DNA of 47,454 nt from Chromera velia (Eukaryota), in contig JAHBMJ010000431.1 in assembly GCA_018398765.1 (NCBI GenBank), positions 1 to 47,454 on the forward strand, read 5' to 3'. Shown here piece by piece: positions 9,101 to 36,499 of this stretch (positions within the stretch are counted from its first letter, which is position 1; every line of letters begins with the position of its first letter). The position numbers and the translations under genes were made by a program. The notes under the pieces are model-generated. The model saw nothing but the letters and a program-made list of their open reading frames with translations. It did not search any database and was not told the origin of the DNA.

Positions 9101-12100
9101 TTCGCTGGACGAAGTAGCTGCAGACACACACTCACACAGACAGACTATATCGTCTTTTCTTTACTTTACTTTTTCGCTTCCCTTCTTTCTTACTTTACTT
9201 TTTACACACAGAAACACACACAGACACACATACAGACAGGTGTCAGACAGAGGTTTTGTTCATACACGATTCCATCCATCCATCTATACACCAACCCACT
9301 CAAAGTGAGGACGAGATAAAATTGGGAAGAGGGGGAGAAGGGGAAGGCAATTCAGAAGAAAGAGATCCGGCCACGCTTTGTAGGGGCAAACAAAAACCTT
9401 GTGCAACGTGATTCTCCACACACTCACTGAAGGAAAATTCCACTCAAGCAGTCTTCTGCTTTTCCATTCAATCGATCTGTATTGTTCTCAATGCAACGAT
9501 GATGCGCGTTCCCAGTGAGTTTCACAACACTTTAAACTGATTCCAAAAGAAGAGAAACATGAAGAGCCGCGGGAGAGAAATCAACCAGCCAAAGAAGAAA
9601 GGAAGCCAGCAAGGACGAACGAAGAAGAGAAAAACAACCCCAGTACTTACGCCAGGATCTCCCGAACATTTTCCATCCAGCTGCTGTCGAGGTCATCAAA
9701 ATCTGTCTCCCAGGTGGTGCGCCCGGGTTTCCTGCAGATAGATAGGCAGAGAGACAGGCAAGCGGGGAAGAATGTGAAAGATTCTCGGCAGCTGAATCAA
9801 GATAGAAAGCCGACAGAGAGAGAGAGAAGGATTCGGGCGGGTAGCCAGCTGATAGAAAGAAATGCGAAGTGCAGAAAAAAATCTTCCCGTGATCCCCTCC
9901 CCCCCGCTCTCTGTCTTCTTGGAGCCTCACTTCTCGATCAGCTTCCTGAGCAAACGAGAAGACCTTGCAAGGTGGCACGACAAAGAAAGAGAAGAAACCA
10001 GAGGACAACACGGCAGATGACTGTGGAGAGGTACAGAGACAGACAAACGGAAAGAAAGAAGCCGAAGTCTACCCACCGATAAACGTGGCCGTTCTCGGCA
10101 ACCAAAAAGAGGTGGGGATATTTGCCTGCACACACACATACGAACACATCGACAGGCAGAGCAATCATGTGAAAAGTCCCCAGAACGAGAGGAAGATGAG
10201 GGAGCCGTCCTCAACTGTGGAGGATCTTTCGTTGTCCCTTCAAACCCGGTCTCACTGTGGAGGAAAAACAGACCGTACTGCTAGGCGCACTTCCCCCGTT
10301 TCCCCCCCTTCACAGCCACCTCCCTTCTCTCTTTCCCGACCGACCAACCCAGGGCTCTCTCCAGCACATCCGGAGAAGACGACGAGAGAACGACCACACG
10401 GTTGCGAGGGTCCTCACTCAGACAACGGATCGCAGCCTGCAGTGAGTGAGGCAGAGAGAATTCTCAGATAGAAGATGCAAAAAGAATACGTAAATGTCTA
10501 TTTGTACATATTAACATTGTATAAAGGGTCCTCACTCAGACAACGGATCGCAGCTTGCAGTGAGTGAGGCAGAGAGGGGCGGACCCAGATTAGAGATATA
10601 GAGACTATAAAAACGAAAATTCATTCCAAAGACAGCAACAAAAATGCACGAGGGGAAAGACAACCGATGCAATTGACATCTATACCTCCGACTCACAAGT
10701 ACCCAAAGAAAAAACAAAACACACACATACAGACAGCCAGACAGACAGACAGACCTGTGTGGAGTCAGGCATCCCCATGTGGGAGAAGAGCTCGGGTTCC
10801 AGACCCCCAAATTGCAGAGGGAACATCGTGCCTCTGCAGACAAGCAGGAAGAGATCGAGGCACTGGGAATGAAGCAGGTGCATACATGGTTGTGTGTCGA
10901 GTCTCTCAACAGAAGAAAAGACGATCTGCCTGCTTGACAGTCAACTCAACCAACCAACCGACTGACCTGAATCCCAGGATGAAAAGTCTCCGCGTACACC
11001 TCTTGTACGCGTTCTGCACGGTCTCATGCCTGACTCTCGGGGGCACGCTGACTCTCTCCAACTCTGCGTCCTGGACGGCCTCTCGGAATTCGGAGATCAA
11101 CTGCTCGCCCCACTGCACACGTACACACACAGCAGAGAAGAAAGAAAAAAGGGGAATCAGCGGTTCAAAAAATGAAGTAAGGCGCAGGCAGAAAGAAGAA
11201 AAACAAACCTCCCCATTCTCCACAGAAAAGAAGGTTCCAAGGTTCCGTCTTGTACCCTCCCCTTGTGTCAGTGGGTCAGTGAGTCTCGTCTTTCCCCCCC
11301 TTTTTGAAAGGCAAGCAAGACTTCCGATGCTCATGGAATGTTTCTTTCTGTCAGAGTCAGAGGGTCAGAGGGGTTTTCAGGGCCTCCTCCAGCAATCTGA
11401 TGGACGGCAGAAGAGCGGGCATGGCTGTGAATGTCTTGAAAAAAGGAGCTTTGACAGACGCTTTTATGAGCAGAGAGAGATGCATCCCGAGTTGTCGGCG
11501 TTTATGATTTGCTGTCAAAAACCAAGAGACTTGCTTCGACCGCGACTACCAAACAGGACCCTGACGATCCATCGTACCTTTTGTGCCGTGTGTTTGACGA
11601 CGTATCTGTAAGCGTAGTCGTGCCTCTCGATTTTCTCCTGCAGGCAAACAGAGGGAACAAAACCAGCGGACAAGTGACCAGCCAGAAGAGGGCAAGCAAG
11701 AGAAAAGCTGTAAACATCTGACAAACCAAGACGCATCACGGAAAGAACTGCACCCCTTCCCGCCTACAGATTCACAAACAAAAAAAAGGGACATCCATCC
11801 CCCCTCTCTCGGCAAAATTGCAAGAGACCAACGGGTTCCTTCCGTCTTTCCTACTAGATCACGATGACCACGATTTCCCACACACGTGTTTCATCAGAGT
11901 GTGCACTCTTCCTTTCTTTTCAGAACAACTCCAAACATGCTTAATTTCCCCTCCACCCCCCCACCTGATCAGGCATCTCGAGGGCGTCGAGGATTGACAT
12001 CGCGAACGTGTTGATGTCCCTGAGACCAGGCAGGGGACCACGACACAATAAATAAGTCAACAAATGAATCAAATCGAGCAGCCTGAACAAGCAAGCGTCT

Positions 12101-34671: not shown

Positions 34672-36499
34672 ATGTCCTTCTCGCAGACTCTACTCCTCTC
34701 GTTGGCTGCTTTTGTCCTCTCCAACGCGACACAGGATCAGTTACGCAACCGGTCAAAGGCCTTAGTGCCTTACAGCAAGCCGCCAGCCGAAGCCTCGGAG
34801 TTGCCCCTCGATTCAACACCTGTGCTCCTGCAGAAACTTGAATTGGAAGCGAAGCCCATGACAGTCACAAACCGCTTCCTGCAGAGTCTGACTGTTGACA
34901 AGATCAAGGGCGACGGCTACCTTGGCGGTGGAATGAATGGTGATGTCTTTCAGGTGCACATCAAGAAAGACAGTCGGCCCTATGTCGTGGGCAGTGGCAC
35001 CTACCTTGGTAAGACCCTGGGGACCTGGGGCCGCACCAGGGTTGAGAAGGAGTACTTCGCTCTGAAGTGTTTGCGAAGCAGCGTCGCTGGTGCTATTGAC
35101 ACGAACAAAAAAGAGGAGGCTCGACTCCATCACTGGGTGACGAAGAAGCACGAGTGCTGAGGAACAAATCGCTGTACGTGTTTCCCCACTGTTGTCCCTC
35201 TATTCCACCACTGGTTCACCGAGGAGCTTAAGGCCACTTACCTGAATCCAAGAGTGAACAACGATGCGAAGAAAGAGTGGAACGCGCGTTGGCATGCCGA
35301 CAAAGACGACAAGGCCGAGGCAGTTGTGTACCTCATGGAGCTCCAAGATATGACGGTCAGTTGTGCATGCATTTACTTTCATGCAGAATTCTTTTTCTTT
35401 TTCTTTGTATGAATTCTGTATGAAAGTAAATGCGTGTACCTCATGGAGCTCCAAGATATGACGGTCGGTGCATGCATTTACTTTCATACAGAATTCTTTT
35501 TCTTCTTCTTTGTATGAATTCTGTATGAAAGTAAATGCGTGTACCTCATGGAGCTCCAGGAGATGACGGTCGGTCGGCTCGTCGTGTGCACGTGTTTGTG
35601 GGTGTCGCATTCCTTTTGAAGTCGAAAGTGAGTGGAGCTACTGTGTGTGGATGTCGTGAGGTAGGAGCTCTGTAGGTGTCTCGACTTCATAAACCCCAGA
35701 TACGCAATCCAACAGACAACCTTGTATGCACGCCTTATGCATGCGGCTTCATGCATACATGCTTCCTGTCATACTGTGTTGGTGCGTGAAGGTAAAAGAT
35801 TGGTGGAAAAGCACAGAGCTGACAGGTATGGCCAAAACGGGCGCAGGCAAAGCTGTGCTGTTCATGTTGGCGTTTATTTTGAACTCCCTGGACTGGTGGG
35901 GTATGACGCACAACGATGCCCACTGGACGAATCTGATGGTCAAAAAAATGAAGAACAATGTCGACCCGTGCGACCCTAAAACCAGCAACCAGAACACATG
36001 CACAACCTGGTGCTTCAAATTCCAGGTACGGGGGTGACTCTCAGAGAGACAGACTGGTTTTCATAATCCGGTCACAGCGACTGTCACACCTTTTCAACTC
36101 TTTTATTCCTGTTTCCCTCTTGCATGTTTGTTTCTCTTGCCTTTTTTCCTTCCTGTCCTCATAAACTACCTGTACTGATCTTTCTCTTCGATCTTGCAGG
36201 ACCTGGAGTTCCGACAAGACGAGGATGAAGAGAACGAAGAGTCTCGAGAGGTAGAGGTCGTCAACAAGAGGTGCATTGCCGCCAGCACGATGGAGAACTA
36301 CATGCTGCGTCTGGGGGATTTCGGTAGCACTGTTGCGGGGTTTCCTTCTGCACACAATGGGAACCTTCCCAGTTCCAACACAGCGACGGGAAAGGGAGGG
36401 ATCAATCCATACGCACCGCCAGGCTCGGTGGCAGACAGCTTTGCCCTAAAGCGCCTGTGTGAGTGGTATCTCAAATTGGACAACTGTCCTCAGTCGTAG
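34672..36499 (+). pseudogene. Signal-peptide atypical protein kinase, 3 exons, in-frame TGA at 35158-35160
   Basis: Exons 34672-35355, 35792-36025, 36200-36499. Hydrophobic N-terminus MSFSQTLLLSLAAFVLSNA; motifs GGGMNG, FALK, YLME, HNDAHWTN, LGDFG. The frame continues cleanly through the TGA to YLMELQDMT|gtcagt. Confidence 0.75.
35326..35571. repeat. Triplicated 33-bp kinase donor junction separated by two hairpin spacers
   Basis: gtgtacctcatggagctccaRgaKatgacggtc at 35326, 35434 and 35539; 23-bp arms gcatttactttcatRcagaattc / gaattctgtatgaaagtaaatgc. Confidence 0.93.

What the first reader, a model, noticed from the sequence alone, without database searches (positions are those of the whole stretch)
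10407..35571. Hairpin insertion family with long target duplications concentrated on exon-intron junctions
Seen: eight loci (10407, 13884, 15852, 16514, 17740, 18822, 27825, and 35326 twice) share one architecture. A 26-52-bp local sequence is duplicated around a 25-76-bp AT-rich spacer. Five loci clearly share the palindromic arm (GC)ATTYAYTTTCATACA(GAATTC) ... (GAATTC)TGTATGAAARTAAATG(C); three spacers are more degenerate. Seven of eight duplications straddle a splice site (5 acceptors, 2 donors), in three unrelated genes on both strands. My rough estimate for ~300-bp introns is that only about a quarter would do so by chance. Known: DNA-transposon TSDs are short and fixed (mostly 2-10 bp), some non-LTR elements make long variable TSDs, and Introners insert non-randomly relative to gene structure. 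Inference: this may be an undescribed splice-junction-associated mobile or repair element. The long duplication regenerates the junction, so insertion is harmless while creating spare splice sites and exon copies. The variable, mosaic spacer suggests templated synthesis at staggered breaks rather than cut-and-paste.
Basis: partly seen in the sequence, partly recalled or inferred. Interest (0 to 1): 0.9.

Follow-up and report, generated by a model that had tools for sequence, protein, structure and literature searches.

The report
Hairpin insertions that duplicate splice junctions
In the alga Chromera velia, short hairpin insertions flanked by unusually long (26-52 base) duplications sit across exon-intron boundaries far more often than chance in this window; they were likely made by a retroelement enzyme briefly extending both ends of a staggered DNA cut, and the one gene junction checked in RNA still splices correctly.

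Summary
Eight loci carry a 26-52-bp duplication around an AT-rich spacer. Six spacers (B, C, D, E, G, H) share a ~30-nt arm, head to head; two (A, F) show no significant arm. An exact gene model and homology put 6 of 6 arm-bearing duplications across splice junctions (H's donor inferred from motif), against 15-30% expected each (P about 1e-4). Independent contigs reproduce A-D, so these are not assembly errors. The arm is a dispersed repeat: about 590-fold single-copy depth, unrelated flanks. RNA from two studies splices G cleanly past the spare acceptor. Arms start at variable template positions with microhomology to target ends (25 of 50 matches, 12.4 expected), stutter, and have different tips. 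That points to templated synthesis on both 3' ends of a staggered cut, as shown in vitro for a Penelope-like retrotransposon, rather than a cut-and-paste MITE. No parent element, enzyme or RNA was found, and no genome was available, so genome-wide junction enrichment is untested; survivor bias from exon-biased insertion remains open. My searches found no description in print, and the scan had not noted it elsewhere.

The parts
5514..22168 (-). Host gene 1: trehalose-6-phosphate synthase/phosphatase-like gene, 36 coding exons; holds loci A-F
   Evidence: P0001 (Pfam PF00982, PF02358 precomputed; labelled Chromera velia by its source) maps with 0 mismatches in 1724 aa; three RNA joints shown agree with the model
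10407..10576 (.). Locus A: 52-bp duplication 10407-10458 / 10525-10576 around a 66-bp AT-rich spacer; straddles an acceptor (22 nt intron, 30 nt exon); spare AG mutated at 10555; no significant arm
   Evidence: spacer also present, with differences, in an RNA-run contig of another strain or haplotype
13884..14016 (.). Locus B: 26/31-bp duplication 13884-13909 / 13986-14016; spacer 13910-13985 with both arms and a re-started arm; straddles an acceptor (23 nt intron, 28 in the spare copy; 3 nt exon)
15852..15979 (.). Locus C: 43-bp duplication 15852-15894 / 15937-15979; spacer 15895-15936 with both arms; straddles an acceptor (23 nt intron, 20 nt exon)
   Evidence: spacer multi-copy in DNA runs
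16514..16604 (.). Locus D: 33-bp duplication 16514-16546 / 16572-16604; 25-bp spacer with arm fragments; straddles a donor (12 nt exon, 21 nt intron)
17740..17886 (.). Locus E: 52-bp duplication 17740-17791 / 17835-17886 holding 48 of 51 nt of an exon plus 4 nt of acceptor; spacer 17792-17834 with both arms now forms the 3' end of the modelled intron
18822..18952 (.). Locus F: 45/41-bp duplication around a 45-bp, 87% AT spacer; mid-intron; no significant arm, membership doubtful
23230..28832 (+). Host gene 2: methylenetetrahydrofolate reductase-like gene (12 exons traced, start exon not traced); name from my reading of the translation
   Evidence: 601 codons without a stop; RNA joint at locus G
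27822..27943 (.). Locus G: 38-bp duplication 27822-27859 / 27906-27943; spacer 27860-27905 with both arms; straddles an acceptor (21-24 nt intron, 14 nt exon); downstream acceptor used
34673..36500 (+). Host gene 3: kinase-like by motifs read by eye (no Pfam hit on two pieces), in-frame TGA near 35158, possibly a pseudogene
35326..35574 (.). Locus H: three copies of a 33-36-bp exon end plus donor around two near-identical hairpin spacers (35359-35433, 35467-35538); one insertion, then likely a tandem duplication
35468..35496 (+). Best-preserved copy of the family arm (29 nt, ending in the GAATTC palindrome, followed by a pyrimidine run); its inverted partner is 35516-35545
   Evidence: outer end matches the modal break point of other genomic copies

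Best explanation
These loci are a dispersed family of very short head-to-head insertions flanked by 26-52-bp target duplications, likely left when a retroelement reverse transcriptase (predicted to be Penelope-like or another non-LTR type) extended both 3' ends of a staggered double nick from the same short stretch of an RNA template and then stopped. Steps: (1) inferred: two nicks 26-52 bp apart leave 3' overhangs; (2) inferred from anatomy: each 3' end primes copying from the same template start, often helped by microhomology to a TGCA-rich template end, and slips back to restart; (3) inferred: after about 15-36 nt the two tails are joined at variable tips, sometimes through the self-complementary GAATTC; (4) inferred: fill-in makes the long duplication; (5) shown in this window: survivors lie across splice junctions; shown at G only: the downstream acceptor is used and the spare acceptor plus hairpin are spliced out; (6) inferred: the A-rich arm end lands 25-36 nt before the downstream AG and may supply its branch point. 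The junction excess is real here, but whether it comes from targeting or from purging of exon-internal hits is open.
For: Head-to-head arms with variable outer starts and different tips at each locus. Target 3' ends match the template start at 25 of 50 overlapping positions against 12.4 in random sequence (p about 0.0005; register set from spacer bases only; 12 junctions); where the matching bases lie in coding exon or the used acceptor they are target sequence, not element. Restarted arm at B. Only the spacer is multi-copy: depth 13552 vs about 23 in run X1, other copies break at 27905-27907 into unrelated flanks (18 contigs at 27906, agreement 0.37) and differ inside (13 contigs, agreement 0.46; 3-4 nt tip variants). 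A Penelope-like protein cleaves and extends both strands from the same RT start sites in vitro, and PLE copies often carry an inverted 5'-truncated copy and a 30-40-bp tail (PMC11167929; PMC8557442). Long variable duplications are known for some LINEs (PMC9977147). Junction excess: 6 of 6 arm-bearing loci, P 0.8-1.1e-4; 7 of 8 overall, P 1.6-2.1e-4.
Against: No parent element, enzyme or template RNA was found. No PLE class is listed in the published chromerid TE table, and Chromera is not named in the Naiad/Chlamys paper or its supplement. The PLE studied in vitro prefers AT-rich cut sites and starts without homology to the target; here the targets are not AT-rich and microhomology is in excess. 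All copies seen are under about 36 nt per arm, whereas retro-insertions usually show a long tail of longer copies (own knowledge). The two arms at a locus share variants at 5 of 5 loci (read), which also fits fold-back copying of one arm or a TIR element. Four arm loci within 4 kb of one gene are far denser than a few hundred copies in 194 Mb predicts; unexplained. The automatic register scored 0-2 matches at several junctions (B top no overlap, D top 0 of 3, E top 2 of 10).
Confidence: 0.5

Rival explanations
1. Host end-joining, not a mobile element's nuclease: adjacent nicks give a staggered break, repair makes a tandem duplication, and a repair polymerase (or a borrowed RT) patches it by copying one abundant RNA or DNA, or copies once and folds back to make the second arm.
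For: Paired nicks give tandem duplications, sometimes with templated inserts and microhomology (PMC5730883, passages). Mosaic, stuttered spacers; A and F have the same duplication-plus-AT-spacer form without an arm. Arms share variants within a locus.
Against: The inserts described there are copied in cis from flanks, while here one ~30-nt sequence recurs at hundreds of unrelated sites with a modal outer end. No Rfam family reaches its gathering score; only generic hairpin miRNA models match.
Confidence: 0.27
2. A miniature inverted-repeat DNA transposon (MITE) with ~29-bp terminal inverted repeats, a collapsed interior and an atypically long stagger.
For: Strong hairpins at H and G (z -15.1 and -4.1); modal precise outer end in other copies; arms concordant within loci; Chromera has about 6.3 Mb of non-autonomous class 2 DNA.
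Against: Duplications vary from 26 to 52 bp, where MITE duplications are short (10-15 bp in the passage of PMC7789003); about half of the arm ends start inside the repeat at target microhomologies; every interior differs.
Confidence: 0.13
3. On the junction bias (a separate question): the element prefers exon or exon-flank DNA in general, exon-internal hits are purged, and junction-straddlers are the survivors; no junction-specific targeting.
For: Exons here are mostly 30-150 nt, so exon-centred 26-52-bp duplications often cross a boundary. The exon-side end carries the microhomology at most loci. A's one mutation removes the spare AG, showing that selection acts on these sites.
Against: Intron-side lengths cluster: 22, 23, 23, 21, 24 at 5 of 7 loci (scan P 0.004-0.009, but 0.06-0.09 if B is taken as 28; post hoc). 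Microhomology weighting alone raises the straddling chance to at most 0.31.
Confidence: 0.45
4. The junction excess is a local fluke of a window chosen for looking striking.
For: One window, six to eight events, picked after the fact; the genome has roughly 4000 such windows; no genome-wide test was possible.
Against: P about 1e-4 under a genes-only null. Among 4 flanks of other copies resolved to 1-3 contigs, 3 hold a donor hexamer within 30 nt, against 7-11% background; weak, since two are mixed consensus strings.
Confidence: 0.12

Closest known systems
Penelope-like elements (PAc/Poseidon in vitro, PMC11167929; Naiad/Chlamys, PMC8557442)
   Same: Extension of both target strands from the same RT start; inverted, truncated copies joined at their truncated ends; a 30-40-bp tail similar in length to the arm; telomerase-related RT, which would suit the stutter.
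   Different: No ORF, pLTR, ribozyme or parent seen; no AT-rich target; microhomology present; 26-52-bp duplication and splice-junction bias not described in what I read.
LINEs with long target duplications (Dualen-4b in Chlamydomonas, median 900 bp; rotifer R9, 126 bp; both as stated in PMC9977147) and L1 twin priming (recalled, no call)
   Same: Long, variable target duplications from staggered nicks; priming on both nicks.
   Different: Those insert long, one-directional copies; in twin priming the inverted part is a different, internal piece of the RNA, whereas here both arms are the same terminal piece.
Tandem duplications from paired nicks repaired by cNHEJ/TMEJ (PMC5730883)
   Same: Duplication of the sequence between two nicks, microhomology, occasional templated inserts.
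   Different: Inserts are copied in cis; no genome-wide shared insert.
Introner elements (Amoebophrya, PMC7789003) and symmetrical stwintrons (Hypoxylaceae, PMC8469720, abstract)
   Same: Hairpin repeats tied to splicing, in an alveolate relative in the first case.
   Different: Those are whole new introns, with 3-5-nt direct repeats or none. Here the insert lies at the edge of an existing intron, duplicates its junction and, at G, is removed with that intron.

Membership tests
Penelope-like element | Telomerase-related RT with GIY-YIG endonuclease in an autonomous partner | not testable with these tools
   No genome held; the only RT in the window is related to APE-type LINEs and is not linked to the arm
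Penelope-like element | Inverted truncated copies joined at truncated ends | tested here: met
   Head-to-head arms at B, C, E, G, H
Penelope-like element | pLTR tandem structure and hammerhead ribozyme | tested here: inconclusive
   None in the inserts; no hammerhead hit at H in Rfam; inserts too short to hold them
Penelope-like element | AT-rich cut site, RT start without target homology (PAc) | tested here: not met
   Targets are exon/intron DNA of ordinary GC; microhomology 25 of 50
Non-LTR retrotransposon / SINE | Variable-length target duplication | tested here: met
   26-52 bp
Non-LTR retrotransposon / SINE | One-directional body with poly(A) or simple-repeat tail at the duplication; range of 5' truncations | tested here: not met
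   Two opposed arms, none longer than about 36 nt; no shared inward continuation among 13 contigs
MITE / TIR DNA transposon | Terminal inverted repeats | tested here: met
MITE / TIR DNA transposon | Short, fixed-length target duplication and precise ends | tested here: not met
   26-52 bp; arm starts range from template position 2 to 9 or more
MITE / TIR DNA transposon | Copies share the interior | tested here: not met
   All five clear interiors differ; low agreement among other copies
Introner | Insert is itself a new intron inside an exon | tested here: not met
   At G the RNA joint removes the old intron with the insert in one 368-nt GT-AG skip; at E a second, GT-AG step is possible but untested
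Known structured RNA family | Rfam match at gathering score | tested here: not met
   41 matches at E up to 10 for 35250-35650, none at gathering score

The most novel reading that the evidence does not exclude
A retroelement system in Chromera that cuts DNA at sites defined by splicing (one nick about 21-24 nt into the intron, perhaps at RNA-DNA hybrid edges left by spliced mRNA), copies only a ~30-nt RNA tail onto both ends, and rebuilds a working splice site from the duplicated target plus a branch point carried in its own arm: a splice-junction-homing insertion that seeds spare splice sites and near-whole exon copies.
Probability: 0.3. Interest if true: 0.9.

Novelty: new variant of a known kind. 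Interest (0 to 1): 0.68.

Why it matters
If the junction bias holds genome-wide it would be a safe-harbour strategy I found no description of: an insertion that hides by duplicating the splice junction. It would give hundreds of natural experiments on how a spliceosome chooses between two near-identical acceptors or donors, a direct route to exon duplication and intron sliding or gain (locus E leaves a GT-AG-bounded 95-nt piece), and an in vivo footprint of both-strand priming, so far shown for a Penelope-like enzyme in vitro. The public genome and RNA-seq make the decisive test a short computation.

Tried and rejected
Whole genome: none held, so no genome-wide count. Empty-site alleles: none seen; the RNA run with fixed differences (X3) still holds A's spacer and G's spare copy; uncovered places prove nothing. 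RNA joints at A-D were not among the rows shown (99 rows hidden). The run search listed no holder on record as RNA. Arm pattern in metagenome contigs: 2 hits, without partner arm or duplication in the flanks printed, taken as chance; viral contigs 0. Rfam: nothing at gathering score. The LINE at 1-1930 as parent: its CATT-type tail resembles E's arm variant but points the wrong way for target priming; rejected, not excluded. Acceptor motif TGCAG (28 of 35 introns) as the cause of the bias through microhomology: raises the chance to at most 0.31. Literature: no paper describing the family in searches; library limited to open papers; supplements 13-16 of PMC4501334 were not searched; Repbase/Dfam not available. 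Earlier scan notes: two unrelated hits, none.
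Full report
Source. The window is eukaryotic. A database protein labelled Chromera velia by its source (P0001) maps to 36 exons on the minus strand with 0 mismatches in 1724 residues, which names the organism and gives an exact gene model. No whole genome was held, so evidence beyond the window comes from two lays of public contigs.

Observation. An unbiased scan for near direct repeats recovered all eight loci; by my reading most of its other rows are tandem arrays, low-complexity or coding repeats, and at least one (18371-18514) is a duplication without an AT-rich spacer. Duplications are 52, 26/31, 43, 33, 52, 45/41, 38 and 33-36 bp (A-H), spacers 22/25-76 bp, 71-87% AT. The arm pattern occurs 13 times against 0.71 expected. 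Shuffle tests support the arm at B, C, E, G, H and more weakly D, and not at A or F (template taken from H2). No further arm-like spot scoring above 25 lies in the window, so no clear arm without a duplication was missed. H is one event followed by a likely tandem duplication.

Junctions. A, B, C, E straddle acceptors and D a donor of the P0001 model; F is mid-intron. This model is a prediction; three RNA joints elsewhere in the gene agree with it, and at E the modelled copy reads LLPSLIRQ where the spare reads HHSLIR. G straddles an acceptor of the MTHFR-like gene: contigs of three RNA runs from two studies join 27561 to 27930 in one 368-nt GT-AG skip, past the spare acceptor and the hairpin, and no other joint is listed. 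Decay of mis-spliced RNA could hide spare-site use. H's donor is inferred from motif and frame, in a gene with an in-frame stop. With insertions masked out and exon-internal positions excluded, a random duplication of the same length inside these genes straddles a junction with probability 0.15-0.30; 6 of 6 arm-bearing loci gives P 0.8-1.1e-4 and 7 of 8 overall 1.6-2.1e-4. The window was picked after the fact, so this is not a genome-wide result.

Beyond the window. Contigs of DNA runs X1 and X2 reproduce A-D with no differences, and X1 reproduces G. Only the spacer is repetitive: summed depth in X1 is 13552 at 27887-27909 against about 23 around it, about 590-fold; the C spacer gives roughly 160-250. 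The tool warns that summed depth is no copy number, so I read this as several hundred close copies, probably an undercount of degenerate ones. Other copies leave the reference at 27905-27907 into unrelated flanks (18 contigs at 27906, agreement 0.37) and differ inside (13 contigs, agreement 0.46), with tip variants including a perfect palindrome in 3 contigs. Of 4 outer flanks resolved to 1-3 contigs and long enough to read, 3 hold a common donor hexamer within 30 nt against 7-11% background; the other listed flanks are mixtures or are short, and I give this little weight. Run X3 has fixed differences from the window yet carries A's spacer and G's spare copy, so these two are older than the split of those strains or haplotypes; no empty site was seen.

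Anatomy. Both arms read inward from the duplications in the same sense, as if each target 3' end had been extended on one template. Arms begin at different template positions, and target ends match the skipped template bases at 25 of 50 positions against 12.4 expected (p about 0.0005, 12 junctions, misses included). By eye, the intron-side arm tends to be complete and the exon-side arm starts at a microhomology (B, D, G, H; E is reversed). B restarts the arm, and tips differ at every locus. Both arms of a locus share variants at 5 of 5 loci (read), which suggests one template per event and also fits fold-back copying. H and G fold into strong hairpins, C weakly.

Splicing consequences. In 46 introns of two genes, adenine is scarce within about 30 nt of the acceptor and rises beyond it, so branch points likely lie beyond that. 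The duplicated intron parts at A, B, C, G are 22-24 nt: pyrimidine tract and AG without the old branch region. The A-rich arm end falls 25-36 nt before the used AG at B, C, G (read), where a new branch point would be needed; this is inference. At E only 4 intron bases were duplicated and the spacer supplies the rest. At A the single difference in 52 bp removes the spare AG. Intron-side lengths are 22, 23, 23, 21, 4, 24, 6; five within 4 nt has P 0.004-0.009, or 0.06-0.09 if B's spare copy (28) is ancestral (post hoc).

Mechanism. I favour abortive both-end reverse transcription at a staggered double nick (0.5). The precedent is the Penelope-like PAc protein, which cleaves and extends both strands from the same start sites (PMC11167929, parts 1-2 of 4 read), and the inverted truncated copies and 30-40-bp tails of PLEs (PMC8557442, passages). 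Long duplications occur with Dualen and R9 LINEs (PMC9977147, passages). Against it: no parent found, PAc prefers AT-rich sites and needs no homology, PLEs are not listed for Chromera (supplement 11 of PMC4501334), and no long copies were seen. Host repair with a captured template (0.27; PMC5730883, passages) and a MITE (0.13) are the rivals. The cause of the junction bias is a separate question: microhomology to TGCAG does not account for it; exon-biased insertion with purging is about as likely as true junction targeting. The density in this window, four arm loci in 4 kb, is far above what a few hundred copies in 193.6 Mb predict and is unexplained.

Comparison and verdict. It is not an introner: the insert is not a new intron at G, and Amoebophrya introners have 3-5-nt direct repeats (PMC7789003, passages); Hypoxylaceae stwintrons have no flanking duplication (PMC8469720, abstract). 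It fails MITE membership on duplication length, end precision and shared interior, works most like a PLE footprint, and cannot be filed as a PLE. The genome paper's passages, section 34 and supplements 10-11 do not mention it, and searches found no description. Verdict: a real, apparently undescribed repeat family with a strong local splice-junction bias and an inferred, untested mechanism; new variant of a known kind; interest 0.68.

Noticed in passing
window 1-1945 (+): 3' part of a degenerate LINE (RVT_1 hit, relatives with APE endonuclease) ending in a CATT-type tail that resembles E's arm variant in sequence but not in the orientation expected for a parent.
   Followed up: partly
window 35158-35160 (+): In-frame TGA in the middle of the first exon of the kinase-like gene that hosts locus H; the frame continues beyond it. 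Pseudogene, missed intron or read-through not resolved.
   Followed up: no
window 17788-17882 (-): At locus E the exon begins with GT, so the 95 nt between the old and new acceptor are bounded by GT and AG and could be removed as a second, recursive step.
   Followed up: no
window 32003-33541 (-): Intronless 513-aa ORF with no Pfam hit; Atlas look-alikes are mostly haptophyte LRR/NLRC3-like clusters.
   Followed up: partly
window 30790-31410 and 37550-38250: AT-rich blocks with poly(A)/poly(T) inverted repeats and mutual similarity, possibly ends of another mobile element.
   Followed up: no
window 23515-23516 (+): First traced intron of the MTHFR-like gene has a GC-AG boundary.
   Followed up: no
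window 18371-18514: A 56-bp diverged direct repeat around a 32-bp spacer of ordinary GC, inside a TPS intron; not of the AT-rich type.
   Followed up: no
window 45463-45990 and 46954-47454; 46237-46882: A ~500-bp segment appears twice (same ORF text) on either side of a 138-bp tandem array.
   Followed up: no
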